Positions 1,388-60,371 of a stretch of 64,000 nt of DNA are shown here, piece after piece. Every line of letters begins with the position of its first letter. The stretch's first letter is position 1. The notes beneath the pieces are model-generated. The model was not told where the DNA came from. It worked only from the letters and a program-made list of their open reading frames with translations, and ran no database searches. Origin of the DNA: an uncultured cyanobacterium (GTDB lineage Bacteria; Cyanobacteriota; Cyanobacteriia; PCC-9006; JAAUQQ01). The translations under genes were made by a program, and so were the position numbers. Location: assembly GCA_963718615.1 (NCBI GenBank), contig OY970368.1:416001-480000 (forward strand). Reading direction: 5' to 3'.

Positions 1388-1512
1388 CCATTTACGCCTT
1401 GCTTTAGATAACTTAGTTTTTCTCTTGTGAAATCTAACAGATTTTTGATGGGGTGGCTACAGCATTACAGATGGCTTCTCAGTTAAGCCTTAGCTGACCA
1501 TCAGAGCCGTAT

Positions 1513-1813
1513 AACAACTTATTCTCATGCACAATGCCTGATAACTCCCCCCTGCCGGTATTTTCAAGCGCCAACGCCGTATAATCCCCAGTCTCAGCCA
1601 GTTATCCAGGCAATCATGCTGGATAACACCCCCTGTTGGGTATTATCAGGCAAAGCTGCATGATAACAACCCGTTTCCAGGTATTATCCCAGCAGCGACG
1701 CCCGATAACACCCCTGTTCAGGTATTATCAGGCATGTCTCAGTATAATATTATTCTCTTCAACCCAGCGTAGAAAATGACAAAATCTTCACCAACAGCTC
1801 AGCACTCTAGACC
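1513..1813 (-). repeat. 301-bp non-coding element copy 1, attI-like region with phased GATAA/TTATC motifs
   Basis: Colinear diverged direct repeat of 11904-12204; shared sequence ends at AATAAGTTGTT on minus strand. Confidence 0.8.
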
Positions 1814-11787: not shown

Positions 11788-11903
11788 TGCATGTATGTCT
11801 ATAGACGACGATAAGACTTATGCAGAAATTTACGTTTTTTTACAAATCAGTAAGTACTTGCCATCGTTCTGGCTGCTTATAATGACGCTAAATTGAGTGG
11901 TCG

Positions 11904-12204
11904 AACAACTTATTCTCATGCACAATGCTTGATAACTCCCCCCTCTCGTCATTCTCAACCACCAGCGCCCCATAATCCCCAGCAATGGTACATTATCCAC
12001 GCAATCATGCTGGATAACACCCCCGTACAGGTATTGCCAGGCAAAACTGCACGACAACAACCCATTTCCAGACATTATCCCAGCATAGCCGCCGGATAAA
12101 ATCCCTATACAGGTATTATTAAGTATGTCTCAGTATAAGCTTACCCTCTTCGACCCAGCGTAGAAAATTACAAAACCTTCACCAACAGCTCAGCACTTTA
12201 GACC
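11904..12204 (-). repeat. 301-bp non-coding element copy 2, attI-like region
   Basis: Direct repeat of 1513-1813, same length and motif phasing. Confidence 0.8.
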
Positions 12205-44662: not shown

Positions 44663-44858
44663 TTGAGTCGATCTCTGGGTTTATTCTGTTGAGACTGGAG
44701 CCTAAGTGATCTAGTTCATCAAGTCTTGTATCACAAATGCCCTTGAGGCGTTAATTCTCTCCCCATTTCGGGAACAAATGATAGGTAGATCACGGGTCTA
44801 CGTTATCCCTGTTGCGGACCCATCGCCGTTGCATTGTGTGCAAGAGGTTCCCGATGTC

Positions 44859-46178: not shown

Positions 46179-46222
46179 TTTAGCCTGCGATTGTTGATCA
46201 ATATTCATTCTGGAGAAAAACC

Positions 46223-46591
46223 ATGGCCACTGTTTTAGTCGTTGACGATACCCCTTCTGAACTTCAGCTCATGTGTCACCACTTGCGCCAAGCGGGATAT
46301 TTGGTGATTAGTGCCCAAAGCGCCGATGAAGGATTTACAAAAGCGCTGCAACAGAAACTGGACGCGATCGTGACCGATATTGCCATGCCCGGTAAAAGTG
46401 GGTTTGATCTTTGCCGCAATCTCAAGGCAGAACCCGCAACCCAAAATGTGCCGATTGTGATTTGCTCTAGCAAAAACCAGTCGATTGATAAACTTTGGGC
46501 CAAACGCCAAGGAGCAGCGGCTTATATTACGAAACCGTTTGATGGACAGAATCTCGTGGCTTCGGTGCAGTCTGTGCTAGGGCAAGGCTAA
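46223..46591 (+). CDS. CheY-like response regulator (PilH/PixH-type)
   Basis: VLVVDD, TDIAMP, DKLWAKRQGAAAYITKPF. Confidence 0.92.
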   Translation: MATVLVVDDTPSELQLMCHHLRQAGYLVISAQSADEGFTKALQQKLDAIVTDIAMPGKSGFDLCRNLKAEPATQNVPIVICSSKNQSIDKLWAKRQGAAAYITKPFDGQNLVASVQSVLGQG

Positions 46592-47187
46592 TGGACCAGG
46601 CAACTGTTACCCCCCGACAGGACAGTAATCGGCAAGGCAGTAATCGGCAAGGCAGTCGTCGCCAGGGCAATGCTCGACAGACCTATGTGAACTTCGAGAT
46701 TACGGCGGAGACACCGGCTCTGCTCTCAACGGTCTATGCCAAGGAAGTCGTGGATGTCCCATTTTCCCAAGTGACGGCACTGCCCAATATGCCCGCGCCG
46801 GTTCTGGGGCTGCTCAACCGCCGCAGCCGCGTTATTTGGTTGGTTGATCTGGCACAGTTGCTGGGGTTACCGCCTTTGATGCCCACGACCGAGGTCTATC
46901 GCGTCATTGTGCTCAGCGTTCATGGGGAGGATTCGCAGGCTTCAGCATCATTGTCGTCAGACCTACCCTTGAGTTTGATGGCGATCGCCGTCCCCACCAT
47001 TCGCGGCAGTGTCCGGATCTTGCCCGAGGCCATTCAGCCCCCCTCGGAACATTTATCACCCCTCTTACTGCCCTATCTCGATGGATGTTTATCGATCAAA
47101 CCTCCGCAACCTGAACTTCGCAATGAATTCACCCTCGTTCTCAACGCCAATCGAATCGCCACCTCACCGCTGCTGATTCAAGCTTGA
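46591..47187 (+). CDS. CheW-like protein
   Basis: [24 protein letters not shown]. Confidence 0.88.
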
Positions 47188-47218
47188 GTTCATTCTTGTC
47201 CTTTCCCAGAGAATCACC

Positions 47219-49546
47219 ATGCAGACCCAGGATCCCAATGTCCTTCCCTCTTCGCCTGCTGCCGCCCCTGACAATACTGGCTTTGTGAATTTAGGGGAGA
47301 TGGCTGGGGGCACCGTGCCAACCCCCTTGGCCCTAGACTCAACCCTAGATAGTGCTGGAGATCAAGCGGGTATTCGAGCGTTGCTGCGGGGCAATGCGCT
47401 GCAAAACCGCCTGCTGACCACCTTTTTGCCCACGGCGCTGGTTCCCCTCTTGCTCGCGAGTGCGCTGGGGTATGGCATCATTCGCAATCGCAACCAAGTC
47501 ACGGCCAAAGTTCAGCTCCAAAACCAATCGCTCTTGGCCAGTGAAGCCACCCAGGATTTTTTGAACGATGCCTTCAAAACTCCTGCGAGTGTGGCCAGCA
47601 ACCCCAGTATGCTCAACACCTTGCGCGCCAGTGCACAACAGGCGGAAGCGGAGAAGCTGCCGCAAAAGCCCCTAGAGCAACTTGAAGCAGACTTTGCCTC
47701 AACGCGATTGCTCAAGTTGGATCAAACCCTCAATACCACGCTGGATAAATTGGCAAAGGTGGGGGGATTGGCAGAGCTATTTATCACAGAACGCAACGGT
47801 TTGAACGTGGCCTATAGTCAGGCAACCTCTGACTTTGTCCAAAGTGATGAAGACTGGTGGAAAAACGGTAAGGCCCAGGGCCGCTGGATTAGTGACCCGG
47901 AGTTTGACGAATCTAGCCAATCGGTGAACGTCGATTTGGTGCAATCTGTAGTGGATGATCAGGGCCAGTTTTTAGGCGTGATCAAAGCGGGTTTGCCCTT
48001 CAATACCTTTAGCCGCATTGACGAATATCTCAACACTAAGAGTTTTAAAACCTCCGAGCAAATTCAGGTTCTGGATACTGGCGCAACTCAGTTGCTTAAA
48101 ACGGTGACGGTTCAGGGCGCTGGAACGGTGAAAGAGGTGACAGGGGGAGAGGCGATCGCCCAACTCTCCGCCGCCCTTTCCCAACTCAATCCCCAAACGG
48201 TGCCGGATACCACCCAGTTGCAATCCGAATGGGAACGGCAGTATGGCGTACAGGGCTTAACGTTAACAACGCTGGGTTCTGATGACTCGCAATCCGCAAA
48301 GCTCTCGGCAACATTTCGCCAGGGCGATCGCCAATATGCCATGACGCCCATTGTGGGAACAGACTGGGTGGCGATCGCCTCCCTCAAAAACGCAGATATC
48401 AACGCCGCTAGTTCGCAGTTGCTCTTGGTCTTTCTGGGAACAGCGGTAGTTCTGGGGGGCATTGCCGCCTTATTAACCCAGATTTTGGCGAAGCAACTCT
48501 CCTTGCCCCTCACCCAGGAAGTTCAGCGGCAGCAGGAGCAAACCGAAGCGATTCAAATGCAGTTGGTGGAGTTTCTCACCAGCGTTGAAGGCGCGGCCCA
48601 AGGGGACCTAACAGTTCACGCCGAGGTCAGCTCGGGGGATATGGGCACCGTGGCGGATTTCTTCAACCTAATTGTGGACAGTTTGCGGCAGATTCTGATT
48701 CAGGTGAAGCAATCGGCGGGTCAGGTGAACCAATCCGTTTCGGGGAATGAAGCCGCGATTCGCCAATTGGCCGACGAATCCCTCAAGCAAACGGAGGAAA
48801 TCTCGAATACGCTCCAGTCCGTGGAAGCCATGGCCCAATCGATTCAGATGGTGGCGAGTAGTGCTAACCGGGCGGCGGAGGTGTCGCGATCGGCAGCGAC
48901 TACCGCTTCAACCGGGGAAATCGCCATGGATAAAACCGTGGAAACGATTCTGAATCTGCGGGGTACGGTGGCGGAAACTGCGAAGAAGGTGAAACGCTTG
49001 GGCGAGTCGTCCCAACAGATTTCCAAGGTGGTCGCGCTGATTAACCAGATTGCGCTCAAGACCAACCTCCTCGCGGTCAACGCCAGTATTGAGGCGGCAC
49101 GGGCTGGGGAAGAGGGCGAAGGCTTCGCGGTAGTTGCGGAGGAAGTCGGGGCACTGGCGGAACAGTCGGCCACGGCCACCAAGGAAATTGAAAAAATTGT
49201 CGAAGGGATTCAAAAAGAAACCAACGAAGTGGTTGAAGCCATGGAGGTGGGAACGTCTCAGGTGGTTGAAGGCACCCGCTTAGTTGAGGATGCAAAAACC
49301 AGTTTGGTGGAAATCCTCAGCGTTTCCCGCCAAATTAATGAGCTCCTGCAATCGATTTCTGAGGCCACGGTGTCCCAGACCCAAACCTCCGACGAAGTGG
49401 CACAACTCATGCAAAAGATTACTCAGGTTTCGCGGCAAACGTCCGAATCTTCGCGGACGGTGTCGGACAATCTGCAGCAAACCGTGGAAATTGCCCAGGA
49501 TCTTGAAATCGCTGTGGGTCAGTTTAAGGTCGGTACTGAGATCTAA
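47219..49546 (+). CDS. Methyl-accepting chemotaxis protein with Cache sensor
   Basis: Two TM helices, [40 protein letters not shown]. Confidence 0.95.
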
Positions 49547-49580
49547 TTGGGGGGGTCTAATTTGGGAGGCCTAATTTGGC

Positions 49581-52481
49581 ATGGGACAAGCAACTAGACG
49601 GGAAATGGGGCGGGAAACCGAGCAGGAACTCCGCCTGCAATTTCTGGAAGAAGCCCAAGAATATCTCAATACGATCGAGCGCTTTTTGATGGGCTTGGCA
49701 GCACGCCCGTTGGACTCTGCCCAGGCGGATGGGGCGCTGCGGGCGGCTCACTCGATCAAGGGTGGGTCGGCGCTGATGGGGTTTCAAATCCTCAGTTCGT
49801 TGGCACACCATTTAGAGGATTTTCTCAAAATTCTCAAGGCTCGGCGTCAGACCATCCAGGTGGATGCGCCCCTAGAGAGCCTTTTGCTGGCGGCGTTGGA
49901 TCAGTTGCGCCAGGAGAGCGATCGCCAACGTGCCGGAAAAATCCTCAACGCCGAAGCCCTCAAACCTCAACTCCAGCCGATTTTCGGCGGACTGCGTCGC
50001 CGCCTGGGGACGCTGCAACCGGAGGACGAGAATGCGCTCCTGTCCGAGGCGAGCGGCACAGATGTGGCAGCAACGCTGTTTGAGCAGGAAGTGGGGGGAT
50101 TGCTGGATGATCTGGAGGCAAAGCTACAAACAGGCAATGAAGCGCTGATTGCTGCTGCCCTGACTGAACTGACCCAGGATCTGCAAGAGTTGGGCATCAT
50201 GCTCAAACTCCAGGCCTTTGTGCGGTTGTGTGAAGCCGTGGCAACGCAGGCTCAGAAGACACCAGAGCGGGGATTGGCGATCGCCCAAGCCGCCCTCAAA
50301 GCTTGGCGCAAGGCCCATGCCATGGTGTTGGTGGGGCAAGCGGAGAATATTACGAGTCAGTTGGAGGGCTTTGAGGCAAGGCCAAAGGAAAGGTCAGAGG
50401 CAAGGCCAAAGGAAAGGTTAGAGGCAAGGGCCATGGAAACCCCTGCCGACGCCCCACCGCCCAGCCCGCCAATTCGCGAAAAAACCGTTCGGGTGCCGTT
50501 GCGATTGCTGGATCAACTGAGTGATTTGTTTGGAGAATTACTCATTGAGCGCAATGCTTTGAATTTGCGTCTTGATCGCCTGCAAATCATGTCGGAGATT
50601 TTGCGCGATCGCGTCCAAGAGGTCGAACTATCCAACGATCAACTGCGACGCTTCTACGACCAAGTAGCAACGGAAACGGCCATTACCCTAAGCGGCTATC
50701 CGGTGCGCGGTCACCAGCTCCAAGGCCGCCAGCCAGGGCATCTGCAATGGGGCCAGGGCAGTGCCACCCTCGATCATCACTTCGATATCCTCGAAAAAGA
50801 CCAGTACAGCAATCTGCATCTGCTCTCTCAAGATCAGATGGAAAACGTCGTGCGGTTGCAGGAGGTCAGCACCGATATTGACCTGGGTCTCTCGGAAGCT
50901 CGCCAAGCGGCTCGGAAGGTCAACCAAACCATTAAACAGCTCCAAAACCGGGTTACCCAATCGCGGATGCGGCCCCTTTCGGAACTGGTGAGTCGGTTTC
51001 CCCGTACGATTCGGGAATTGTCGTTGCGCTATGGCAAAACCGTGGAACTAGAGGTGATGGGGGGCACGACGCTGGTGGATCGGGCGATCGTCGAAGCCTT
51101 GGCGGACCCGCTGCTGCATCTGCTGCGCAATGCCTTTGACCACGGCATCGAATCCCCTGAGGCCCGACGGGCAGCGGGTAAGCCAGAGACAGGACGCATT
51201 GAAATTCGCGCCGCCCACCGAGGTCGCCAAACGCTGATCCAAATCCAGGACGATGGGGCAGGGATCAATCTTGAGAAGGTCCGGGCAAGGGCGCTCAAAA
51301 TGGGCATTAGCGAAGCCCAACTGGCGCGATCCAGCGAAGCAGATTTGCTAGACCTGATTTTTGAACCAGGTTTTAGCACCGCTGACCAAGTCACGGATCT
51401 GTCGGGTCGTGGCGTGGGTATGGATGTGGTTCGCACCAATCTCAAGCAGATTCGAGGCGATGTTAAAGTCGAAACCCACGCCGGTCAAGGCACGACGTTT
51501 ACGCTTTCAGTCCCGCTGACTCTCTCGGTGGTGCGAGTGCTGTTGGTGGAGAGCAATGATTTGCTCATGGCCATGCCCACGGATGTGATTGCGGAGATGG
51601 TCCTGCCCCATCCCGAAATGCTGCTCAGTGCTGCGGGACAGACCCTGCTCAACTGGAATGATTTGATGGTGCCGGTGCTCAACTTGGGTGACTGGCTCCC
51701 GTTTAATTGCCCCAAACGAGCTCTGGAAAGTGAACTAGCAACTAAAATCAATACGCCAACCATTTTGCTGATCCATCGGGATAATAGCTGGGTAGGAATT
51801 CAGGTCGATCGCTTCCGGGCAGAACAGGAAGTTGCTATTCGCCCCATTGAGGGGCCGTTGGCATTGCCACCGGGCTGCACGGGCTCGACGATTTTGGGCA
51901 ATGGTCGCGTGGTGCCGATTATGGATCCCATACAACTCCTGGGCTGGATGACGGGCTGTGATCTTCATCCCGCAATGCCGGTGACTGCGAGGGGGAATTC
52001 AAGCTCCAATGGCAGTTCCAATGGCAGCTCCAATGGTAACGGCAATCTTGAGGCGATCGCCCCATTCCCATCCTCTACGACCTCCACGACCTCCACGGCC
52101 TCACCCCCCGTCGTTATGGTGATCGATGATTCGATCAATGTGCGCCGCTTCTTGGCCTTGACGCTCGAAAAGTCAGGCTATCGTGTGGTTCAGGCCCGCG
52201 ATGGTCAAGATGCCGTGGAAAAATTAGCCCAAGGGCTTACCGTTCACGGCATTGTCTGCGACTTAGAAATGCCCCGACTAGATGGCTATGGGGTCCTGAC
52301 CCACGTCCGTGAGCAATCCCAATTCAAGCGGTTGCCGGTCATTATGTTGACCTCTCGGAGCAGCGAGAAGCATCGGCAACTGGCGATGACCCTGGGGGCG
52401 ACGGACTATTTCTCAAAGCCCTATAACGAACAAGCACTACTCAAACGTCTGCGTTCTGCCCTGGAGACTGCAACTCGATGA
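49581..52481 (+). CDS. cheA: CheA-CheY hybrid histidine kinase
   Basis: RAAHSIKG Hpt, HLLRNAFDHGIE, GRGVGMDVV, CheW and receiver domains. Confidence 0.95.
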   Translation: MGQATRREMGRETEQELRLQFLEEAQEYLNTIERFLMGLAARPLDSAQADGALRAAHSIKGGSALMGFQILSSLAHHLEDFLKILKARRQTIQVDAPLESLLLAALDQLRQESDRQRAGKILNAEALKPQLQPIFGGLRRRLGTLQPEDENALLSEASGTDVAATLFEQEVGGLLDDLEAKLQTGNEALIAAALTELTQDLQELGIMLKLQAFVRLCEAVATQAQKTPERGLAIAQAALKAWRKAHAMVLVGQAENITSQLEGFEARPKERSEARPKERLEARAMETPADAPPPSPPIREKTVRVPLRLLDQLSDLFGELLIERNALNLRLDRLQIMSEILRDRVQEVELSNDQLRRFYDQVATETAITLSGYPVRGHQLQGRQPGHLQWGQGSATLDHHFDILEKDQYSNLHLLSQDQMENVVRLQEVSTDIDLGLSEARQAARKVNQTIKQLQNRVTQSRMRPLSELVSRFPRTIRELSLRYGKTVELEVMGGTTLVDRAIVEALADPLLHLLRNAFDHGIESPEARRAAGKPETGRIEIRAAHRGRQTLIQIQDDGAGINLEKVRARALKMGISEAQLARSSEADLLDLIFEPGFSTADQVTDLSGRGVGMDVVRTNLKQIRGDVKVETHAGQGTTFTLSVPLTLSVVRVLLVESNDLLMAMPTDVIAEMVLPHPEMLLSAAGQTLLNWNDLMVPVLNLGDWLPFNCPKRALESELATKINTPTILLIHRDNSWVGIQVDRFRAEQEVAIRPIEGPLALPPGCTGSTILGNGRVVPIMDPIQLLGWMTGCDLHPAMPVTARGNSSSNGSSNGSSNGNGNLEAIAPFPSSTTSTTSTASPPVVMVIDDSINVRRFLALTLEKSGYRVVQARDGQDAVEKLAQGLTVHGIVCDLEMPRLDGYGVLTHVREQSQFKRLPVIMLTSRSSEKHRQLAMTLGATDYFSKPYNEQALLKRLRSALETATR

Positions 52482-53017
52482 AAAATACCTTAGTTCGGAC
52501 TCGACGCCATCGCAAACGCGTTAAGGAAACGACAGTACAACTAATTACGTTTCAACTGCGCCAGGATTGGTTTGCGCTACCCATTACTGCCGTGGAGCGA
52601 GTGATTCCCCTGGAGGCGGTCTATGGCGAAGCCCATCAGTCGGGCATTGGCCTTACGGTTTACCAGGGTCAAGAACTGGTGGTCGTAGATGTGGGCCAGC
52701 GGCTTTTTGGGGAAGCGGGTCAAGCAGAGGGCACGTTGCTGCATCTGGATGCCTCCCAACAGGATGTTTTGGATCAGGTCCAGTTGCTGTTGATTCTCAA
52801 GGCTCCGACGGGGAAGCCCATTGGCATTCCAATTGATTCTCGTCCGGTGTTGAAACGGGTGGTAGCGGAGGCGATCGCCCCCATCCCCCACGAATACCAA
52901 ACCTCGGGGAAAATCCAATGTGTTAGTTCGCTCTCGGTCCAGGCGGCGGGCGAACCGCTGCTGTTTTTGCTGGATACGGAGCAGTTGTTTGAGGCGTTGG
53001 CGTTGAGCTTGGTCTGA
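52478..53017 (+). CDS. CheW-like protein
   Basis: LITFQLRQDWFALPI; last gene of taxis operon. Confidence 0.85.
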   Translation: MKNTLVRTRRHRKRVKETTVQLITFQLRQDWFALPITAVERVIPLEAVYGEAHQSGIGLTVYQGQELVVVDVGQRLFGEAGQAEGTLLHLDASQQDVLDQVQLLLILKAPTGKPIGIPIDSRPVLKRVVAEAIAPIPHEYQTSGKIQCVSSLSVQAAGEPLLFLLDTEQLFEALALSLV

Positions 53018-53105
53018 CGGGTGAATTTTTCCTGTATATCCAGTGTGAACCCAAGCATGGGCTTTAGCATGGGGACAGTGCTTGTCTTGGGGACTGGCTG
53101 GAACC

Positions 53106-55232
53106 ATGGTGCTGACAACAATCCTGATTTTGGCTGCGAACCCAAAGGATACGCAGAAGCTGCGCCTGGACCAAGAAGTCCGGGATATTGAGGAGGCGCT
53201 GCGACGGGCTCCGGCGGGACGCGATCGCTTTCAAGTCATCCAGTACTGGGCCGTCCGGCTGGATGATTTACGGCGAGCTTTGTTGGAGCATCAACCGCAG
53301 ATTGTCCATTTTTCGGGGCATGGGGTGGGCGATCGCGGTCTAGTTTTCGAGGATGACCAAGGCAACAGCCAACTAGCCGACAGCCAAGGCATTGCTAATT
53401 TGCTGCGGCTGACGTCCAGCCTTGAATGTGTGGTCTTGAATGCCTGCTATTCCGAGGTTCAGGCTGAGGCGTTGGAAGCAGCCATATCGGGTTGTCTGAT
53501 TGGCATGAATCAGGCGGTGGGGGATGAGGCGGCGCGGAAGTTTGCCATCGGGTTTTATGATGGACTGTTTTATGGGGAGTCCTATGAGCGGGCGTTTGAG
53601 TATGGCTTGACGGCGTTGGAGCTGGAGCGGTTGCCCCAGGTGCCGGTTTTGACTTGGGGACGGCGATCGCTCAATTCTGCCGATGTTTCTCCTCGGCGCG
53701 TTTTCATCAGCTACAAGCGCAATGCGCAACCGGATGCGGCCTTGGCCTTGCAGTTGGTGGAGGCTCTCAGCCACAATCACCAGGTTTTTATCGATCAGCA
53801 GATGGCGGTGGGGGTGCGCTGGCGCGATCGCATCGCCCAAGAGATTCGCCAAGCGGATGCCATGGTGGTGTTGCTGTCTGAAATGTCGGTCCAGAGCGAA
53901 ATGGTGGAGCTGGAGGTGAAGCTGGCCCAGGAGGGAGCCGCCAATGTTGGAAAGCCCACGGTGCTGCCGGTGCGGGTGCAGTACCGAGAGCCGTTTCAAT
54001 ATCCCCTCAGTGTCTACCTGGACCCGATCAACTGGGCTTTCTGGGAGGGACCGGAGGACACCTCGCGCTTGCTGGGAGAATTGCAGGCGGCGCTGCGCGG
54101 TGGCGATTTGCCGGTGGCGACGGCTCAGGCGAAGCAGGCCCTGCTGCAACCAACTGCGACTTCCACAATTCCGAGCCCCACGCCTTCGGCCCAGCCCCAA
54201 ACCCAAGCGGCCTGCAACCCAGCGACGCTGGAGCAGCCGGAGGGGACGATGGATCCGGAGTCGGTGTTTTATGTGGAGCGTCCGGTGGATGCAGTGGCGT
54301 TGGAAACCATCGCTCAGTCAGGGGTGACGCTGACGATTAAGGGTCCGCGTCAGATGGGGAAAAGTTCGCTGCTGCTGCGCACCATTGAGGCGGCGCGGGA
54401 TGCGGGAAAACAGGTGGTGTTTCTAGATTTTCAGTTGTTTGACCAAGCGGCGTTGCAGGATGCGGATACGTTCTATCGGCAGTTTTGCTATTGCCTGACG
54501 GATGAGCTGAATTTGGACGACGAGGTAGAGCAATATTGGGCGCGACCTCTGGGGAATCCGCAGCGCTGTACCCGTTACGTCGAGCGCCATATCCTTAAGC
54601 AAATTCAGGAGCCGATTGTGCTGGCGATGGATGAGGTGGAGCGGATGTTTGATACGCCGTTTCGCAATGACTTTTTCAGTATGTTGCGCAGTTGGCATAA
54701 TCAGCGGGCGATGAAGCCGCTGTGGAAGCGGTTGGATTTGGCCTTGGTAACTTCGACGGAGCCCTATCAGCTAATTGCGGATTTAAATCAGTCGCCGTTT
54801 AATGTGGGGCAGGTGTTGCGGCTAGAGGATTTTTCGCCGGAGCAGGTGGTGGCGTTGAATCTGGCCCACGGGGAGCCCTTTGGGGCGGGGGAGGTGCAGA
54901 AGTTGATTGGGTTGTTGAATGGGCACCCCTATTTGACGCGGCGGGCGTTGTATTTGGTGGCGAGTGGACGGCTGGGGCCGGGGGAGCTGTTTGCCACGGC
55001 GGCGGATGAGCGGGGGCCGTTTGGCGATCATTTGCGCTATCACCTGTTCCGCATGTATGACCAACGGGAGCTGGTGGAAGGTTTTTTGGAGGTGTTGAAA
55101 CGGCGGGACTGCGAAAATGAGCGGGTGTTTTTTCGGCTGAATGGGGCGGGGATTGTGATGCGCCAGGGTCATGATGTGGTTCCAAGGTGTCAGTTATATG
55201 CCGAATTTTTTGGAGACCATTTACGACAATAA
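53106..55232 (+). CDS. CHAT (caspase-like) + TIR + STAND/AAA_35-type NTPase
   Basis: IVHFSGHG and LNACYS; VFISYKR...SEMVELEV; GPRQMGKSS, LAMDEVE, SPFNVG, GHPYLT. Confidence 0.88.
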   Translation: MVLTTILILAANPKDTQKLRLDQEVRDIEEALRRAPAGRDRFQVIQYWAVRLDDLRRALLEHQPQIVHFSGHGVGDRGLVFEDDQGNSQLADSQGIANLLRLTSSLECVVLNACYSEVQAEALEAAISGCLIGMNQAVGDEAARKFAIGFYDGLFYGESYERAFEYGLTALELERLPQVPVLTWGRRSLNSADVSPRRVFISYKRNAQPDAALALQLVEALSHNHQVFIDQQMAVGVRWRDRIAQEIRQADAMVVLLSEMSVQSEMVELEVKLAQEGAANVGKPTVLPVRVQYREPFQYPLSVYLDPINWAFWEGPEDTSRLLGELQAALRGGDLPVATAQAKQALLQPTATSTIPSPTPSAQPQTQAACNPATLEQPEGTMDPESVFYVERPVDAVALETIAQSGVTLTIKGPRQMGKSSLLLRTIEAARDAGKQVVFLDFQLFDQAALQDADTFYRQFCYCLTDELNLDDEVEQYWARPLGNPQRCTRYVERHILKQIQEPIVLAMDEVERMFDTPFRNDFFSMLRSWHNQRAMKPLWKRLDLALVTSTEPYQLIADLNQSPFNVGQVLRLEDFSPEQVVALNLAHGEPFGAGEVQKLIGLLNGHPYLTRRALYLVASGRLGPGELFATAADERGPFGDHLRYHLFRMYDQRELVEGFLEVLKRRDCENERVFFRLNGAGIVMRQGHDVVPRCQLYAEFFGDHLRQ

Positions 55233-55243
55233 CCGTTATGCCC

Positions 55244-55271
55244 GTAGGGACGAACCGCCGTTCGTCCTTGC
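55244..55271 (+). repeat. GTAG-type REP-like palindrome
   Basis: GTAGGGACGAAC-CGCC-GTTCGTCCTTGC hairpin. Confidence 0.65.
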
Positions 55272-55322
55272 CAATACCCAAGCAGCAGCCAGATCGAGAT
55301 TAACCCAGGGATTAACAGCACC

Positions 55323-58300
55323 ATGAGTTCATCGATTTACACCACAGGCGGAACGGTCCAGGCGGGGGGCGGCATCTATCTGCCCCGCAAGGCGGATGAT
55401 GAGCTGTTGCAGCTCTGCCGGGAGGGGCAGTTTGCCTATGTGTTGACGCCGAGACAGATGGGAAAGTCGAGTTTGATGGTACGGACGGCGGAGCGGCTGG
55501 GGGAAGAAGGCGTTACGTCGGTGATTATTGACCTGACCAAGATTGGCACGGAGGTGACGGCGGAGCAATGGTATTTGGGGCTGCTGACGGAGATTGATGA
55601 TGCGTTGATGTTGGAGACGGACATTTTTGACTGGTGGGCGGAGCGGCAGCATTTGGGTGTGACGCAGCGGCTGACGCGATTTTTTGAGGAGGTGCTGCTG
55701 GCGGAGGTGGCTGGGCAACTCGTGGTGTTTGTGGATGAGATTGACACGACGCTGAGTTTGGATTTTACGGACGACTTTTTTATTGCGATTCGCTATTTCT
55801 ATGTGGGGCGGGCGAAGGCGGAGGCGTTGGGTCGGCTGTCGTTTGTGTTGATCGGGGTGGCGACACCGGGGGATTTGATTCGGGATCCGCAGCGGACGCC
55901 GTTTAATGTGGGGCGGCGGGTGGAGTTGACGGATTTTACGGCGGCGGAGGCGTTGCCTTTTGCCCAGGGGTTGGGGCCGCAGGGTGAGGAGGTTTTGGGC
56001 TGGGTGATGGAGTGGAGTGGGGGGCACCCGTATTTGACGCAGCGGTTGTGTCAGGGGGTGGCGGAGGCGGGGAGTGGTGTGGACGAAGGCTCTGTGAATC
56101 AGTTGGTGGAAAAACTATTTCTGGAGGGGGGAGAGCGGAACGACAATAATTTGTTGTTTGTGCGGGATATGTTGACCCAGCGGACGCCGAATCGGAATGA
56201 GTCGGTGTATGAGGTGTTGATGACCTATCGGGATGTGTGGTTGGATAGGCAACCCGTGCTGGATGAGGAGCAGTCGCTGGTGAAGTCGCATCTGAAGCTG
56301 GCGGGGATTGTGCGGCGGGAGGCGGATCGGCAAGGGGCGCTGCGGGTGAGCAATGGGGTTTACCGGGCGGTGTTTGACGAGGCTTGGGTGAAGGAACATC
56401 TCCCCACAAATTGGGTCAAGCGCTTGCAAAGGGCGCGGGCCGCTATTGCTGCATTGCTTGCGGTGACGTTGGTGGCGGTGCCGTTGGGGGTGTTGGCGGA
56501 GTATCGGCGGCGGGAGGCGGTGGAGCAGCGGGCGGAGGCGCAGAAACAAACGATTTTGGCTCAGGCTAATTCTTCGCGGGCTTTTTTGTTGGCGAATCAA
56601 CCCTTGGAAGGCATGGTGGCGGCGGTGGCGGCTTGGCAGAAGGTGGAGGAAGAAGATTTGAGTACAGCAACGATGGCAGCACCAGCAAGGACTGCCCTAA
56701 TGGGAGGAGCATACTATGAGCCAGGATTTAATCTGGGTCCTGTACAAGCAAAGCGGTTCTCTAAGCGTAGTTTTCGAGAAAAAAACTTTCTAGAAGGCCA
56801 TGGCGATAGTGTCATAAGTGTGGCCTTTAGCCCCGATGGAGAGACGATTGCATCCGCCAGCTTGGATCGCACGGTCAAACTCTGGGATCGGCAGGGAAAG
56901 CTACTCAACACCCTAGAAGGCCATGGCGATAGTGTCATAAGTGTGGCCTTTAGCCCCGATGGAGAGACGATTGCATCCGCCAGCGATGATCGCACGGTCA
57001 AACTCTGGGATCGGCAGGGAAAGCTGCTCAACACCCTAGAAGGCCATGGCTCTAGTGTCTGGAGTGTGGCCTTTAGCCCCGATGGAGAGACGATTGCATC
57101 CGCCAGCTTGGATCGCACGGTCAAACTCTGGGATCGGCAGGGAAAGCTGCTCAACACCCTAGAAGGCCATGGCAATTGGGTCATAAGTGTGGCCTTTAGC
57201 CCCGATGGAGAGACGATTGCATCCGCCAGCTCAGATCGCACGGTCAAACTCTGGGATCGGCAGGGAAAGCTGCTCAACACCCTAGAAGGCCATGGCAATT
57301 GGGTCATAAGTGTGGCCTTTAGCCCCGATGGAGAGACGATTGCATCCGCCAGCGATGATCGCACGGTCAAACTCTGGGATCGGCAGGGAAAGCTGCTCAA
57401 CACCCTAGAAGGCCATGGCAATTGGGTCAGAAGTGTGGCCTTTAGCCCCGATGGAGAGACGATTGCATCCGCCAGCTTGGATCGCACGGTCAAACTCTGG
57501 GATCGGCAGGGAAAGCTGCTCAACACCCTAGAAGGTCATGGCAATTGGGTCATAAGTGTGGCCTTTAGCCCCGATGGAGAGACGATTGCATCCGCCAGCT
57601 TGGATCGCACGGTCAAACTCTGGGATCGGCAGGGAAAGCTGCTCAACACCCTAGAAGGCCATGGCAATTGGGTCATAAGTGTGGCCTTTAGCCCCGATGG
57701 AGAGACGATTGCATCCGCCAGCTTGGATCGCACGGTCAAACTCTGGGATCGGCAGGGAAAGCTGCTCAACACCCTAGAAGGCCATGGCGATAGTGTCATA
57801 AGTGTGGCCTTTAGCCCCGATGGAGAGACGATTGCATCCGCCAGCGATGATCGCACGGTCAAACTCTGGGATCGGCAGGGAAAGCTGCTCAACACCCTAG
57901 AAGGCCATGGCGATAGTGTCATAAGTGTGGCCTTTAGCCCCGATGGAGAGACGATTGCATCCGCCAGCGATGATCGCACGGTCAAACTCTGGGATCGGCA
58001 GGGAAAGCTACTCAACACCCTAGAAGGCCATGGCAATTGGGTCATAAGTGTGGCCTTTAGCCCCGATGGAGAGACGATTGCATCCGCCAGCTTGGATCGC
58101 ACGGTCAAACTCTGGGATCGGCAGGGAAAGCTGCTCAACACCCTAGAAGGCCATGGCGATAGTGTCATAAGTGTGGCCTTTAGCCCCGATGGAGAGACGA
58201 TTGCATCCGCCAGCGATGATCGCACGGTCAAACTCTGGGATCGGCAGGGAAAGCTGCTCAACACCCTAGAAGGCCATGGCGATAGTGTCATAAGTGTGGC

Positions 58301-58601
58301 CTTTAGCCCCGATGGAGAGACGATTGCATCCGCCAGCGATGATCGCACGGTCAAACTCTGGGATCGGCAGGGAAAGCTGCTCAACACCCTAGAAGGCCAT
58401 GGCTCTAGTGTCATAAGTGTGGCCTTTAGCCCCGATGGAGAAACGATTGCATCCGCCAGCTCAGATCGCACGGTCAAACTCTGGGATCGCGACCCGCAGA
58501 GGCTACTGGCTTGGCACTGCAACTGGCTCCGCGACTATTTGCTCCACAACCCCGATGGGCAAAAGGCAAAGGCAGACGGCGTTTGTCGGGGCAGGCTCTA
58601 G
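55323..58601 (+). CDS. STAND/AAA_35-type NTPase + TM helix + 14 WD40 repeats
   Basis: TPRQMGKSS, VFVDEID, TPFNVG, GHPYLTQ; AAIAALLAVTLVAVPLGVLA; GH..V.SVAFSPDG..IASAS.D.TVKLWD. Confidence 0.92.
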   Translation: MSSSIYTTGGTVQAGGGIYLPRKADDELLQLCREGQFAYVLTPRQMGKSSLMVRTAERLGEEGVTSVIIDLTKIGTEVTAEQWYLGLLTEIDDALMLETDIFDWWAERQHLGVTQRLTRFFEEVLLAEVAGQLVVFVDEIDTTLSLDFTDDFFIAIRYFYVGRAKAEALGRLSFVLIGVATPGDLIRDPQRTPFNVGRRVELTDFTAAEALPFAQGLGPQGEEVLGWVMEWSGGHPYLTQRLCQGVAEAGSGVDEGSVNQLVEKLFLEGGERNDNNLLFVRDMLTQRTPNRNESVYEVLMTYRDVWLDRQPVLDEEQSLVKSHLKLAGIVRREADRQGALRVSNGVYRAVFDEAWVKEHLPTNWVKRLQRARAAIAALLAVTLVAVPLGVLAEYRRREAVEQRAEAQKQTILAQANSSRAFLLANQPLEGMVAAVAAWQKVEEEDLSTATMAAPARTALMGGAYYEPGFNLGPVQAKRFSKRSFREKNFLEGHGDSVISVAFSPDGETIASASLDRTVKLWDRQGKLLNTLEGHGDSVISVAFSPDGETIASASDDRTVKLWDRQGKLLNTLEGHGSSVWSVAFSPDGETIASASLDRTVKLWDRQGKLLNTLEGHGNWVISVAFSPDGETIASASSDRTVKLWDRQGKLLNTLEGHGNWVISVAFSPDGETIASASDDRTVKLWDRQGKLLNTLEGHGNWVRSVAFSPDGETIASASLDRTVKLWDRQGKLLNTLEGHGNWVISVAFSPDGETIASASLDRTVKLWDRQGKLLNTLEGHGNWVISVAFSPDGETIASASLDRTVKLWDRQGKLLNTLEGHGDSVISVAFSPDGETIASASDDRTVKLWDRQGKLLNTLEGHGDSVISVAFSPDGETIASASDDRTVKLWDRQGKLLNTLEGHGNWVISVAFSPDGETIASASLDRTVKLWDRQGKLLNTLEGHGDSVISVAFSPDGETIASASDDRTVKLWDRQGKLLNTLEGHGDSVISVAFSPDGETIASASDDRTVKLWDRQGKLLNTLEGHGSSVISVAFSPDGETIASASSDRTVKLWDRDPQRLLAWHCNWLRDYLLHNPDGQKAKADGVCRGRL
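56790..58490 (+). repeat. Intragenic tandem array of 14 x 123-bp near-identical WD40 units
   Basis: CTAGAAGGCCATGGC recurs every 123 bp from 56790 to 58389; last unit truncated. Confidence 0.97.
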
Positions 58602-58627: not shown

Positions 58628-58921
58628 CTATTGATCAAATAATCGCTCTACATCTCGGGAGCCGTGCAAAATTCGAACAATCTCGATGCAGTTGGCTTGC
58701 ACAAAATAAAAAACAATATACGGCTTCACCGGAAAACTCCTCAGTTCTGCCAACAACTCGTCCCGAAGCTTCCCCATTTCCGGAAACTGCGCCAACATTG
58801 GCAAATGATCCAAGAGCTTCGCGATCGCCCGATCCGCTCCAATCTCATCCTGCTCAGCCAAATAAACCCAAATATCTTCCAAATCCTGCTCAGCTTCCCG
58901 AGAGAGTTGATAACGGTTCAT
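58628..58921 (-). CDS. parE: ParE/RelE-family toxin
   Basis: LSREAEQDLEDIWVY, FPEMGKLRDEL, YIVFY, IVRILHGSRD. Confidence 0.9.
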   Translation of the reverse strand: MNRYQLSREAEQDLEDIWVYLAEQDEIGADRAIAKLLDHLPMLAQFPEMGKLRDELLAELRSFPVKPYIVFYFVQANCIEIVRILHGSRDVERLFDQ

Positions 58922-59223
58922 GCTTGCTCTTGCCGAGCCCGACCTCGCTCCCGAATCTTTGCCGCCAAATCTGGCAACGTCTCATTCGTATACGCCGTAA
59001 ACTGACCTGCTCTAAGCTGCTCAACCCCAAGCATCAGTGCCTGACGCAACTCCGTCAACTTTGCTTGCTCCTCCTCCGACAAAGGTTTAGCCCGTAGCTT
59101 TTCTGTCAGAGCCCTGCGCTCCTCATCTGTTAACGCTAGGATAATCTGCGCCAGAGAATCCACAAGCTGGGTGTTTACAGGAGGGCCTCCACTGCTTGCC
59201 TGGGTCGCCGTGGCTTGAGTCAT
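58918..59223 (-). CDS. Probable cognate antitoxin (ParD-like C-terminus)
   Basis: ATGA overlap with parE; KLTELRQALMLGVEQLRAG. Confidence 0.7.
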   Translation of the reverse strand: MTQATATQASSGGPPVNTQLVDSLAQIILALTDEERRALTEKLRAKPLSEEEQAKLTELRQALMLGVEQLRAGQFTAYTNETLPDLAAKIRERGRARQEQA

Positions 59224-59453: not shown

Positions 59454-59583
59454 CCCCACCCCTCACCTCAGCCCCAGACACCGGGGGTTTTGGTCTCATC
59501 CTGAAATCTGCATCTCTCCCCCACCAAACTCCCGGCGTTTCAGCCTCCAACTATGAATTCAGGGTTTGCATTACACTAAAACC

Positions 59584-60000
59584 ATGCCAGCCAAAGACCT
59601 CTATCACGACGCTGTCAAATCAGCCCTGATTCAAGACGGGTGGACCATCACCGATGATCCACTCACCCTTAAGATTGGCGTTCGAAACCTAGCCATTGAC
59701 CTAGGAGCCGAGAAACTCCTCGCAGCAGAACGTGGGCCAGACAAAATCGCAGTCGAAGTCAAAAGTTTCATTGGTCCTTCCCTCCTCTCCGAACTAGAAA
59801 AAGCCTGGGGACAGTTTTTCCTCTACGCCCGAACCCTTGCACGGCAAGAACCTGAACGCAACCTCTATCTAGCCGTAAACAATACAACCTTTGAAACCCT
59901 CTTTCAGGAAGAAGCCGGTCAGATCCTCCTTCAAGAGCCAGGATTTCGCTTACTCGTTGTTGATGTCGATCGCCAGGAAATAGTTCTATGGAAACCCTAG
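59584..60000 (+). CDS. xisH: XisH family protein
   Basis: MPAKDLYHDAVKSALIQDGWTITDDPL, IDLGAEK, IAVEVKSF. Confidence 0.93.
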   Translation: MPAKDLYHDAVKSALIQDGWTITDDPLTLKIGVRNLAIDLGAEKLLAAERGPDKIAVEVKSFIGPSLLSELEKAWGQFFLYARTLARQEPERNLYLAVNNTTFETLFQEEAGQILLQEPGFRLLVVDVDRQEIVLWKP

Positions 60001-60371
60001 CCCAACCTCACAATTCCCCCAACACCCCAACGCCCCAAACCCTTGAGCAATGGTGTCAGGAAATCGAAAAGATTTTGCAATATTATGCTGATCTTCCCTA
60101 TCGCTACGGAGAGGTTACAACGAGCGTTGTTGTTAGTGGCGATCGAAAAAACTTTCTCCTCATCAACGAAGGCTGGGAAGGCAATCGGCGAGTCTACGGC
60201 ACCGTCGTCCATGCAGAAATCCGTAACGGAAAAATCTGGATTCATCACGACGGCACAGAGGAAGGCATCACCGAAGACTTAGTCGCAGCAGGTGTCCCAA
60301 AAGATAACATTGTCCTAGCCTTTCATCCCCCCAGCGTGCGGCAACACACAGGATATGGCGCAGACAGCTAA
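59988..60371 (+). CDS. xisI: XisI family protein
   Basis: GKIWIHHDGTEEGI..DLVAAGVPKDNIVLAFHPP. Confidence 0.93.
   Translation: METLAQPHNSPNTPTPQTLEQWCQEIEKILQYYADLPYRYGEVTTSVVVSGDRKNFLLINEGWEGNRRVYGTVVHAEIRNGKIWIHHDGTEEGITEDLVAAGVPKDNIVLAFHPPSVRQHTGYGADS

What the first reader, a model, noticed from the sequence alone, without database searches (positions are those of the whole stretch)
56790..58490. Fourteen WD40 repeats that differ almost only at four codons, combinatorially shuffled
Seen: three variable slots per 123-bp unit: GATAGT/TCTAGT/AATTGG (DS/SS/NW), ATA/TGG/AGA (I/W/R), TTG/GAT/TCA (L/D/S). Order: DS-I-L, DS-I-D, SS-W-L, NW-I-S, NW-I-D, NW-R-L, NW-I-L, NW-I-L, DS-I-D, DS-I-D, NW-I-L, DS-I-D, DS-I-D, SS-I-S. 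Elsewhere I see only about four silent differences. Alleles are whole-codon swaps that reassort independently. Known: fungal HNWD allorecognition receptors diversify in this way at propeller-surface positions; 14 units fit two 7-bladed propellers. Inference: a recombination-driven variable receptor generating new specificities.
Basis: partly seen in the sequence, partly recalled or inferred. Interest (0 to 1): 0.8.

Follow-up and report, generated by a model that had tools for sequence, protein, structure and literature searches.

The report
Near-identical WD40 blades of a cyanobacterial immune-type sensor
The fourteen almost identical repeats are real and encode the ligand-binding propellers of a cyanobacterial sensor protein of an already described family, thought to work like an innate-immune receptor and varying only at its predicted binding surface.

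Summary
Fourteen in-frame 123-bp units (56790-58511) differ at four codons: 48 differences in 168 nt, all amino-acid changing. Elsewhere there are 4 silent differences in 1530 nt.

The array is the C-terminus of a 1092-aa protein: AAA_35/STAND-like NTPase, one hydrophobic helix, 14 WD40 blades, a two-cysteine cap. A CHAT-TIR-AAA_35 gene lies 90 nt upstream.

This matches the published WRAP family (WD40-family Recently Amplified Propeller). PDB 2YMU, a 14-blade double propeller from Nostoc punctiforme, matches at E=1.4e-250, and the same two-gene arrangement is in print.

Codons 7, 9 and 25 have the spacing of the published WD40 top-face hotspots. Codons 6, 7, 9 and 25 are also the four most variable positions within 37 other highly repetitive arrays of the family.

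Multi-nucleotide alleles occur in all four combinations, and a 3-unit block is duplicated, so units recombine within the array. No donor copy exists elsewhere in the genome.

Population variation and assembly could not be tested.

Verdict: a new member of a known kind, and the fungal analogy is apt in mechanism. Possibly new: the propellers may lie outside the cytoplasm.

The parts
53082..55232 (+). Partner gene: CHAT (caspase-like protease) + TIR + AAA_35 NTPase, 716 aa from the TTG start. The real start is probably the ATG at 53106.
   Evidence: Pfam: CHAT aa 48-169 (2.5e-10), TIR_2 aa 207-322 (2.9e-19), AAA_35 aa 386-711 (3.2e-109). PADLOC chat, SAVED_CHAT and TIR models match. The hydrophobic N-terminus appears only with the TTG start; the G002 orthologue starts MAATKILILAANP.
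55233..55322 (+). 90-nt gap between the partner gene and the sensor gene.
   Evidence: No promoter-like or terminator-like site was found in the gap by the consensus scan. This is weak support for co-transcription.
55323..56438 (+). Sensor N-terminal NTPase module (aa 1-372): AAA_35, with Walker A GKSS and Walker B VFVDEID, followed by helical and winged-helix-like parts.
   Evidence: Pfam AAA_35 aa 10-249, 1.4e-31. AlphaFold2 model with 37-row alignment, pLDDT 88.1, pTM 0.85. Foldseek PDB hits: SSO1545 2fna, PAB2304 2qen, Orc1/Cdc6, CED-4 (TMq 0.51-0.55), NRC NB-ARC, MalT.
56439..56495 (+). Single hydrophobic, transmembrane-like helix (aa ~373-391, AAIAALLAVTLVAVPLGVL).
   Evidence: Mean Kyte-Doolittle 2.55 over 19 aa. 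It is the only such segment in the protein. An equivalent segment is present in 106 of 119 homologues.
56496..56789 (+). Charged helical linker, ending in a non-repeated strand (FSKRSFREKNF) just before the first blade.
   Evidence: Read from the sequence. The segment is conserved in the G002 and P0006 relatives. The 'velcro strand' reading follows the WRAP description in PMC9218822 and is inferred.
56790..58511 (+). Fourteen 123-bp (41-aa) WD40 units. Hypervariable codons in each unit are 6, 7, 9 and 25.
   Evidence: Pfam WD40 gives 14 stretches, E=1.5e-197. 2YMU matches at E=1.4e-250 over 566 aa.
57651..58388 (+). Duplicated 3-unit (369-bp) block: units 8-10 and units 11-13 differ at 1 nt.
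   Evidence: block comparison. Units 2, 9, 12 and 13 are identical to one another, and units 8 and 11 are identical.
58488..58601 (+). Non-repeated C-terminal cap with two cysteines (C1066, C1088; CNWLRDYLLHNPDGQKAKADGVC), then the stop codon.
   Evidence: At least 2 Cys in the cap in 94 of 109 homologues, against 0.12 Cys per 100 aa in the WD arrays.
58664..59223 (-). Neighbouring ParE-family toxin gene (58664-58921) and a small upstream antitoxin-like ORF (58918-59223). This is context, not shown to belong to the system.
   Evidence: Pfam ParE_toxin 2e-19.

Best explanation
The array encodes the ligand-binding WD40 double propeller of the sensor half of a two-gene, NLR-like system of the published WRAP type.

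The sensor is an AAA_35/STAND-like NTPase joined by one membrane helix and a linker to 14 blades. The gene directly upstream encodes a paralogous NTPase carrying CHAT protease and TIR domains, the likely executioners.

Shown:
- the domain make-up
- the conserved gene pair
- the near-identity of the blades
- the concentration of all amino-acid variation in four codons that match the known top-face binding positions
- recombination among units.

Inferred:
- The blades were amplified recently and are kept alike by unequal crossing-over and gene conversion inside the array.
- Selection keeps and reshuffles alternative residues at the binding face, so the receptor's specificity changes quickly.
- Ligand binding drives NTP-dependent assembly with the partner and releases protease and NADase activity, as in other STAND immune systems.

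The ligand and the trigger are unknown.
For: Array and variation.

Domains.

NTPase fold is like SSO1545, Orc/Cdc6 and CED-4.

Family: 2YMU at E=1.4e-250. The published description reads 'WRAP at the C-terminus of a STAND ATPase whose gene is coupled to a TIR (+/- caspase) STAND ATPase, conserved in cyanobacteria'.

Gene pair:
- 5 of 5 sensor-type ORFs in this genome lie directly downstream of a partner-type ORF on the same strand.
- The same pair stands in G002, G018, G039, G013, G032 and G040.
- Partner N-termini swap between CHAT, TIR, CHAT+TIR, cyclase+TIR and none known.

Binding face:
- Codons 7, 9 and 25 have the 2- and 16-residue spacing of the hotspots R1-2, R1 and D-1, and codon 25 directly precedes the tetrad Asp.
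- Mean within-array entropy over 37 other arrays with at least 70% internal identity is highest at positions 25 (2.0 bits), 7 (1.92), 9 (1.90) and 6 (1.56).
- An unrelated-in-DNA paralogous array in this genome varies at codons 4, 7, 9, 25 and 40, with no synonymous change in its repeated part.

Recombination: four-gamete sets with alleles that differ by 3 nt each, plus the block duplication.

Turnover:
- All window units are 100% alike in framework.
- The nearest relative by N-terminus (P0006, 83%) has a different 9-10-blade array.
- The G002 orthologue has 13 diverged units.
- A second assembly of that protein lacks exactly one unit, with 0 mismatches in 1016 aa.
Against: - No experiment exists on any member in the papers I could search. 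Searches gave only bioinformatic or structural work on the propeller.
- No strain or population data for this gene, so 'rapid change of specificity' is inferred from relatives.
- Slot assortment is not free (Fisher p=0.08; 8 haplotypes).
- The one-unit difference in the G002 species compares short-read-type assemblies, and a collapsed repeat would look the same. PMC12222747 warns that such arrays are not reliably reconstructed from Illumina assemblies.
- My own model of the WD region was poor (pLDDT 53), so the two-propeller fold rests on homology to 2YMU.
- AAA_35 matches no PADLOC model and no curated NCBIfam family for the sensor, so a defence role is by analogy.
Confidence: 0.7

Rival explanations
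1. Pure 'young repeat': one blade was amplified very recently, and the differences are ordinary point mutations that happened to be tolerated at surface positions. There is no ongoing recombination and no selection for diversity. This is the amplification-and-differentiation view of the WRAP papers, taken alone.
For: Near absence of synonymous change (4 in 1530 nt), as in Npun_R6612. Close WRAP homologues are reported to have been amplified independently. All window units are closer to each other than to any unit of the G002 orthologue.
Against: - At least 14 nucleotide changes are needed to link the alleles at 12 sites, against 3 to 4 events at 111 other sites per unit. That is far above a uniform rate.
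- Alleles that differ at 3 of 3 nt occur in all four combinations, which recurrent mutation does not explain.
- The same four positions are the most variable in 37 other arrays.
- Two of the three silent variants (col 9 T, col 54 A) equal the commoner state in the G002 orthologue. That fits incomplete homogenisation, though it is weak evidence.
Confidence: 0.2
2. Assembly artefact: the unit order, the unit number or some variants are products of collapsing or mis-joining near-identical repeats.
For: Units 2, 9, 12 and 13 are identical, and units 8-10 nearly equal units 11-13. Published experience shows that such arrays cannot be rebuilt from short reads. No reads of this organism could be laid.
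Against: - The genome is one 6.10-Mb contig rated 100% complete, which suggests long reads (inferred).
- The array is in frame without indels.
- It has 14 units, the modal number in the family (58 of 119) and the number in 2YMU.
- Two other 123-bp arrays in the genome are also intact.
Confidence: 0.05
3. Not an immune receptor: a membrane signalling or scaffold NTPase, for instance tied to the chemotaxis-like genes just upstream. Surface variation among blades would then only tune binding to several cellular partners.
For: An MCP, a CheA hybrid kinase and CheW stand directly upstream on the same strand. Family members swap the WD40 part for CHASE2, and an orphan AAA_35 carries GGDEF, both typical of signal transduction. 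No defence-library hit for the sensor.
Against: The chemotaxis neighbours are not conserved in the G002 locus. The conserved neighbour is the CHAT/TIR partner, whose N-terminal domains are swapped as in conflict systems. Array turnover between close relatives is not expected for a housekeeping scaffold.
Confidence: 0.12
4. Targeted mutagenesis by a diversity-generating retroelement or a similar templated system.
For: Such retroelements diversify putative sensors in multicellular bacteria, cyanobacteria among them (search listing: PMC10907252, PMC7517822; abstracts only).
Against: No second copy of the unit (a template repeat) exists anywhere in the genome. The changes are not confined to one template base: they include G>A, A>T, T>G, T>C and more.
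Confidence: 0.02

Closest known systems
[quoted passage not shown] Sources: Dunin-Horkawicz, Kopec & Lupas 2014 (not held, known only through citing papers); Afanasieva et al. 2019 (passages); Pereira & Lupas 2022 (passages).
   Same: - 14 near-identical 41-aa blades at the C-terminus of a STAND-type ATPase.
- The upstream gene encodes a second STAND ATPase with TIR (+/- caspase-like) domains.
- Almost no synonymous change.
- The one recurrently variable Npun position (Trp/Arg) aligns with the window's codon 9 (I/W/R).
   Different: Npun has 10 point mutations, 6 of them at one position. Here four codons carry 2-3 alleles each, most of them multi-nucleotide, in 8 haplotypes, with recombinant combinations and a 3-unit block duplication. 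The blade framework differs from 2YMU at many aligned positions (by eye from the alignment; not computed).
Fungal HNWD / high-internal-conservation NLRs (het-e, het-d, nwd of Podospora anserina).
   Same: WD40 repeats 80-100% alike, with variability at four codon positions on the interaction surface. Also unequal crossing-over, repeat shuffling and a double propeller.
   Different: The fungal proteins have NACHT and an N-terminal HET domain on one polypeptide, are cytosolic, and exchange repeats between paralogues. Here the NTPase is AAA_35, the effectors are in a separate gene, there is a membrane helix, and no paralogue shares the unit.
Highly-Repetitive (HR) prokaryotic WD40 proteins (Hu et al. 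2017, PMC5587647).
   Same: A class defined by high internal identity, half of it bacterial. Diversity is noted at the predicted interaction hotspot sites.
   Different: That survey gives no gene-pair context and no recombination analysis in the passages I read.
Apaf-1 / CED-4 type STAND receptors and bacterial Avs / bNACHT pattern-recognition STANDs.
   Same: An NTPase-helical-winged-helix module followed by a repeat sensor. The fold search hits CED-4 and NB-ARC. WD40 sensors in bacterial STANDs are noted in PMC13581612.
   Different: Those are single polypeptides and cytosolic, with diverged repeats. Here the sensor and effector are split, there is a membrane helix, and the blades are near-identical.
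Toll-like receptors (works-like comparison only).
   Same: If the topology prediction holds: an outside repeat sensor, one membrane helix, and inside signalling that ends in a TIR domain.
   Different: No homology of the sensor (WD40 versus LRR). TIR is on a separate NTPase partner. The topology is untested.

Membership tests
WRAP-type STAND gene pair (Lupas group) | WD40 blades with very high internal identity (above 60%, near-identical in the type case). | tested here: met
   Mean pairwise unit identity 0.93. Framework identity 100% over positions 1-33 without the four slots.
WRAP-type STAND gene pair (Lupas group) | Sequence relationship to the solved WRAP propeller; 14 blades forming two 7-bladed propellers. 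| tested here: inconclusive
   2YMU matches at E=1.4e-250 over 566 aa, ungapped, and there are 14 units. However, my own single-sequence model was unusable (pLDDT 53), so the two-propeller fold is by homology only.
WRAP-type STAND gene pair (Lupas group) | Propeller at the C-terminus of a STAND-type ATPase. | tested here: met
   AAA_35 at aa 10-249. The model (pLDDT 88) is most similar to SSO1545, PAB2304, Orc/Cdc6 and CED-4.
WRAP-type STAND gene pair (Lupas group) | Adjacent, same-strand gene for a second STAND ATPase with N-terminal TIR, sometimes also a caspase-like domain. | tested here: met
   CHAT+TIR_2+AAA_35 gene ends 90 nt upstream. The pair recurs 5 of 5 times in this genome and in six relatives.
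WRAP-type STAND gene pair (Lupas group) | Few or no synonymous differences between blades. | tested here: met
   4 synonymous differences in 1530 framework nt.
Fungal HNWD NLRs | NACHT nucleotide-binding domain. | tested here: not met
   Pfam on aa 1-489 at E<=1 gives only AAA_35, AAA_22 and AAA_16.
Fungal HNWD NLRs | N-terminal HET (or other) effector domain on the same polypeptide. | tested here: not met
   The NTPase starts at residue ~10. The effector domains are in the upstream gene.
Fungal HNWD NLRs | Hypervariable codons confined to the propeller's interaction surface. | tested here: met
   Codons 7, 9 and 25 correspond to R1-2, R1 and D-1 by spacing and by the tetrad Asp, with family-wide entropy peaks at the same places. 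This is mapped by position, not on coordinates.
Fungal HNWD NLRs | Repeat-number and repeat-order polymorphism among individuals. | tested here: inconclusive
   No second copy of this gene exists in public data. In the G002 species, two assemblies differ by exactly one unit, which could also be an assembly collapse.
Fungal HNWD NLRs | Exchange of repeats between paralogous genes. | tested here: not met
   Apart from the array itself, the only match in the 6.1-Mb genome is a 50-nt stretch at 85% identity.
Diversity-generating retroelement targets | A template repeat near a reverse transcriptase; changes at template adenines only. | tested here: not met
   No second copy of the unit. Substitution types are mixed. 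Reverse transcriptase genes were not searched for.
Bitopic membrane receptors (N-in, C-out) | A single transmembrane helix with positive-inside charge bias and an extracytoplasmic C-terminal domain. | tested here: inconclusive
   - The helix is present in 106 of 119 homologues. Net charge is +2.5 on the N-side and +0.07 on the C-side. K+R is higher on the N-side in 68, equal in 26 and lower in 12.
- Paralogues carry CHASE2 in place of WD40.
- A conserved Cys pair sits in the cap.
- The window protein's own K+R count is 4 on each side.
- No topology predictor was run and no experiment exists.

The most novel reading that the evidence does not exclude
The hypervariable propellers are not cytosolic, unlike the sensors of NLRs and of fungal HNWD proteins. 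They would be displayed outside the cytoplasmic membrane. The family would then be a transmembrane STAND receptor:
- periplasmic or surface WD40 (or CHASE2) sensor
- one membrane helix
- cytoplasmic NTPase
- recruitment of a TIR / CHAT-bearing NTPase partner.

In layout this is a bacterial counterpart of Toll-like receptors. Its binding face would be diversified by intragenic recombination, and it could sense phage particles, secreted toxins or neighbouring cells before anything enters the cell.

Basis:
- a conserved helix with charge bias
- CHASE2 in the same position in two paralogues of this genome
- a conserved cysteine pair in an otherwise cysteine-poor C-terminal region.

I found no statement of this in the WRAP papers I could read: 0 occurrences of 'transmembrane' in PMC9218822, and 'membrane' only in the reference list of PMC6805158. 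The founding 2014 paper is not held and may say it.
Probability: 0.45. Interest if true: 0.7.

Novelty: new member of a known kind. Interest (0 to 1): 0.45.

Why it matters
The family links three hallmarks of eukaryotic innate immunity (STAND NTPase, TIR, caspase-like protease) to a sensor that seems to renew its binding face at high speed. No member has a known ligand or a tested function in the papers I could search.

This copy is a good test object. It has a clean, complete array with only four variable codons and 2-3 alleles each, clear recombinant units and a recent block duplication, in a closed genome that carries four further pairs of the same system for comparison.

It would let one ask directly whether bacteria generate receptor diversity by intragenic repeat shuffling as fungi do, and on which side of the membrane such receptors sense.

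As a finding, though, it repeats what is published for Nostoc WRAP proteins and for highly repetitive prokaryotic WD40s.

Tried and rejected
1. Public reads: the search listed six runs, the best holding 0.09 of the sampled words, and no RNA holder was listed. Laying four of them at 90% likeness gave only short 90-95% fragments of relatives' conserved parts, and nothing spanned the array. This says nothing on assembly, expression or population variation.

2. Strain variants by protein search: the window's protein is a singleton cluster, and the nearest hit has 75% identity over 80% of the query.

3. Structure of the WD region from a single sequence: pLDDT 53.4, pTM 0.38, unusable. No tool returns coordinates in any case.

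4. Complex prediction of the two NTPase modules (sensor aa 1-372, partner aa 380-716, own alignments): no verdict. Median score 0.36, against 0.23 for the best control. This is no evidence either way.

5. Donor copies elsewhere in the genome: none. The diversity-generating-retroelement idea was dropped for that reason.

6. Literature on AAA_35 / PF14516 by name: the search term collided with unrelated strings and gave nothing useful.

7. Dunin-Horkawicz et al. 2014 is not held, so its content is known only through citing papers. Supplements are closed; the supplementary alignments of the WRAP and HR-WD40 papers may bear on which positions vary.

8. Earlier notes of this scan near the place: nothing shown.

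9. Linkage to the upstream chemotaxis genes: not conserved in the G002 locus, so not pursued.

10. Silent variants as ancestral states: two of the three silent variants match the commoner G002 state, but chance with a transition bias is not small, so I give this little weight.


Full report
**1. The observation**

Tandem Repeats Finder finds one array at 56790-58489 with period 123, 13.8 copies, 96% matches and no indels. Cut in register from 56790, there are 14 units that lie in frame in the ORF 55323..58601 on the + strand, 1092 aa.

All amino-acid variation sits in unit codons 6, 7, 9 and 25.
- Outside those codons there are 4 differences from the consensus in 1530 nt, at three columns, all synonymous.
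- Inside them there are 48 differences in 168 nt, all non-synonymous.
- The binomial probability of this concentration is 1e-43.
- Unit 14 leaves the repeat after codon 33 and continues into a non-repeated tail.

Two details need softening.
- Allele pairs differ by 1 to 3 nucleotides, so not all are whole-codon swaps.
- The slots are not independent. DS goes with D in 5 of 6 units and NW with L in 4 of 6 (Fisher p=0.08). Only 8 haplotypes occur, and the W and R alleles of the middle slot are singletons.

**2. The gene and its neighbour**

Pfam finds 14 WD40 stretches in the protein. In the N-terminal 489 residues it finds only AAA_35 (PF14516, aa 10-249, 1.4e-31) plus weak general P-loop models.

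An AlphaFold2 model of aa 1-372, built with a 37-row alignment, has pLDDT 88.1. Its best matches among solved structures are the archaeal ATPases SSO1545 and PAB2304, Orc1/Cdc6, CED-4 (TMq 0.51-0.55), plant NRC NB-ARC modules and MalT. That is the STAND / Orc-Cdc6 corner of the AAA+ world.

After the NTPase module come a single strongly hydrophobic segment (aa ~373-391), a charged linker, the 14 blades and a 37-residue cap with two cysteines.

The gene that ends 90 nt upstream on the same strand encodes CHAT + TIR_2 + AAA_35. The consensus scan found neither a terminator-like nor a promoter-like site in the gap.

Further upstream stand an MCP, a CheA hybrid kinase and CheW. Downstream, on the other strand, lie a ParE-family toxin gene with a small partner ORF, then XisH and XisI.

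**3. It is a member of a described family**

The WD region matches PDB 2YMU at E=1.4e-250 over 566 ungapped residues.

[quoted passage not shown] It has 14 practically identical blades that form two 7-bladed propellers. It carries 10 point mutations in 563 residues, 6 of them Trp to Arg at one blade position, and no synonymous substitutions (passages of bioRxiv 10.1101/723619, and of PMC9218822).

- WRAP is the C-terminus of a STAND ATPase whose gene is coupled to another STAND ATPase with an N-terminal TIR domain.
- In other cyanobacteria the partner may also carry a caspase domain.

That is the arrangement found here. In the alignment, the recurrently variable Trp/Arg position of Npun aligns with the window's codon 9 (I/W/R).

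Two other papers had already noted related points. Hu et al. 2017 observed that highly repetitive WD40s, half of them bacterial, are diverse at the predicted hotspot sites. Dyrka et al. 2020 observed that bacterial NLR-like WD and TPR repeats with 80-90% internal identity might diversify as the fungal ones do.

**4. The variable codons are the binding face**

The WDSPdb paper defines the top-face hotspots of a WD40 blade as R1-2, R1 and D-1. These are the 16th, 18th and 34th residues, and D-1 directly precedes the Asp of the Asp-His-Ser/Thr-Trp tetrad.

In the unit LEGHG[DS]V[I]SVAFSPDGETIASAS[L]DRTVKLWD, codons 7, 9 and 25 have exactly that spacing (2 and 16), and codon 25 precedes the Asp at 26. 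Codon 6 is the next residue in the same loop. This is a mapping by position, not on coordinates.

As an independent test, I built an HMM of the unit and cut the units out of the 120 proteins. Units with indels, and arrays with fewer than six 41-residue units, were left out.

In the 37 other arrays whose units are on average at least 70% identical, the mean within-array entropy is highest at positions 25 (2.0 bits), 7 (1.92), 9 (1.90) and 6 (1.56). Positions 27 (1.2) and 2 (1.07) follow, and the core positions are near zero.

A paralogous 10-unit array in the same genome has no DNA similarity to this one. It varies at codons 4, 7, 9, 25 and 40, with no synonymous change in its repeated part. 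A third array of about 14 units varies at the same places.

**5. How the pattern arises**

All window units are identical in framework. Every unit of the closest orthologue with the same gene pair (G002; 62% identity in the N-terminal 489 residues by my alignment, 63%) differs from the window consensus at 15-32 of 123 nt. The array has therefore been amplified or homogenised within this lineage.

Three things point to recombination inside the array.
- Alleles DS/NW and D/L differ at 3 nt each, and all four combinations exist. The same holds for NW/SS with L/S. Recurrent mutation is an unlikely source.
- Units 8-10 and 11-13 are a 369-bp duplicate with one difference.
- In the G002 species, a second assembly encodes the same protein minus exactly one 41-residue unit, with 0 mismatches in 1016 residues. 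This may also be a collapsed assembly, a known problem for such arrays.

No other place in the 6.1-Mb genome holds the unit. Exchange is therefore intragenic, unlike the inter-paralogue exchange described in Podospora.

Linking the observed alleles needs at least 14 nucleotide changes at 12 sites, against 3-4 events at the 111 other sites of the unit. So the four codons are either under strong diversifying selection or they preserve older alleles through homogenisation. The Ser allele (TCA) and the Asp allele (GAT) at codon 25 use the same codons in G002, which is compatible with the second reading but is weak evidence.

Array turnover is fast relative to the rest of the gene. The nearest relative by N-terminus (P0006, 83% identity) has 9-10 blades of a different framework, with mean framework identity 0.78. 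The more distant G002-type blades reach 0.97.

Fourteen is the modal unit number in the family (58 of 119; 13 in 21).

**6. The system**

In this genome, 5 of 5 sensor-type ORFs lie directly downstream of a partner-type ORF on the same strand. The pair also stands in six relatives examined.

The partner's N-terminus is swapped from case to case:

| Locus | Partner N-terminus |
|---|---|
| L035 | TIR |
| L036 | CHAT |
| L037, L038 | nothing known |
| window, G002 | CHAT+TIR |
| G018 | nucleotide cyclase+TIR |
| G032 | TIR |

The partner family is large, with 5453 representative clusters at E<=1e-30.

Constant NTPase cores with swapped death-type domains are the signature of conflict systems (criteria quoted from PMC7159879). 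By analogy with other STAND receptors, I infer the following sequence:
- ligand binding to the propellers releases the sensor NTPase
- the sensor NTPase assembles with the partner's paralogous NTPase
- TIR and CHAT are thereby activated.

None of these steps is shown.

**7. A point that may be new**

An equivalent hydrophobic segment lies between the NTPase and the first blade in 106 of 119 homologues. Over those 106, three measures of the flanking charge were taken.
- The mean net charge of the 15 flanking residues is +2.5 on the N-side and +0.07 on the C-side.
- K+R is higher on the N-side in 68, equal in 26 and lower in 12.
- In the window protein itself K+R is 4 and 4, with acidic residues 1 and 4.

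Two of the five sensor-type paralogues of this genome carry CHASE2 in place of the WD40 part, flanked by hydrophobic segments. CHASE2 is known as an extracellular receptor domain, as stated for a cyanobacterial metacaspase-CHASE2 protein in PMC3501461.

The C-terminal cap holds at least two cysteines in 94 of 109 homologues, and exactly two in 86. The blades hold 0.12 Cys per 100 residues, against 3.28 in the cap.

Together these suggest an N-in, C-out protein whose propellers face the periplasm. That would make the system Toll-like in layout rather than NLR-like. I found no such statement in the WRAP papers that I could read, but the 2014 paper is not held. I put this reading at about 45%.

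**8. Verdict**

The object, however, belongs to a family described since 2014, and the hotspot variability of highly repetitive prokaryotic WD40s has been in print since 2017.

What this copy adds:
- a particularly clean case of four-codon, multi-allele variation with direct signs of intragenic recombination
- family-wide numbers for the variable positions
- the topology hypothesis.

Variation among strains, the assembly of the array, the ligand and the function remain untested.

Noticed in passing
window 9495-10694: A second tandem array, period 99 bp, about 7-10 copies at 62-84% identity. It also appears as a 99-bp array at genome 425816-426492. The 33-aa period would fit HEAT or a similar repeat protein (guessed from the period alone). 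Neither strand nor frame was looked at.
   Followed up: no
window 1504-1813 and 11895-12204: Two direct repeats (88 nt at 83% and 212 nt at 84% identity) with the same spacing of 10391 nt. They bracket the region that holds the 99-bp array, which suggests a duplicated gene end or a segmental duplication.
   Followed up: no
window 58664-59223 (- strand) and 59566-60371 (+ strand): A ParE-family toxin gene overlapping a small upstream ORF (antitoxin-like; only a weak ELP3_N hit), followed by XisH and XisI genes. These small addiction-type modules sit right beside the sensor pair.
   Followed up: partly
window 44778-53017: A chemotaxis-like cluster directly upstream on the same strand: response regulator, MCP with a Cache domain, CheA hybrid kinase (Hpt-HATPase-CheW-REC) and CheW. 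CheW overlaps the CheA stop codon by 4 nt. This neighbourhood is not conserved next to the pair in G002.
   Followed up: partly
own genome C1:2754297-2758237 (L037) and C1:4178384-4182825 (L038): Two further pairs of the same system, in which the sensor-type NTPase carries a C-terminal CHASE2 domain instead of WD40. The partners have N-terminal regions of about 140-195 aa without a Pfam match.
   Followed up: partly
own genome C1:4328306-4330225 (L039): An orphan partner-type AAA_35 protein fused to a C-terminal GGDEF diguanylate cyclase domain, with no sensor-type gene beside it among the ORFs scored.
   Followed up: no
own genome, many places: The genome holds dozens of other long-period tandem arrays with 86-98% matches. 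Periods are 102, 120, 126, 138, 144, 174 and 240 bp, for example 5071332-5072842 (102 bp x 14.8) and 3116992-3120277 (240 bp x 13.7). Highly repetitive repeat proteins appear to be a general trait of this organism. Only the three 123-bp arrays were examined.
   Followed up: no
L030 (G018:C1:17000-34000): Two tandem sensor genes (1167 and 1168 aa) share an identical stretch at the N-terminus and further on differ at scattered positions. Their 14-blade arrays are quite different and diverged. They are followed by a convergent cyclase-TIR-AAA_35 partner gene, so one partner may serve two sensors.
   Followed up: no
P0009 and P0010: Two proteins from different sources that look almost the same outside the repeats differ in length (1166 and 1135 aa), in an insertion in the NTPase module, and in the content of the blades. 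This may be another case of array rearrangement between close strains. They were not aligned.
   Followed up: no
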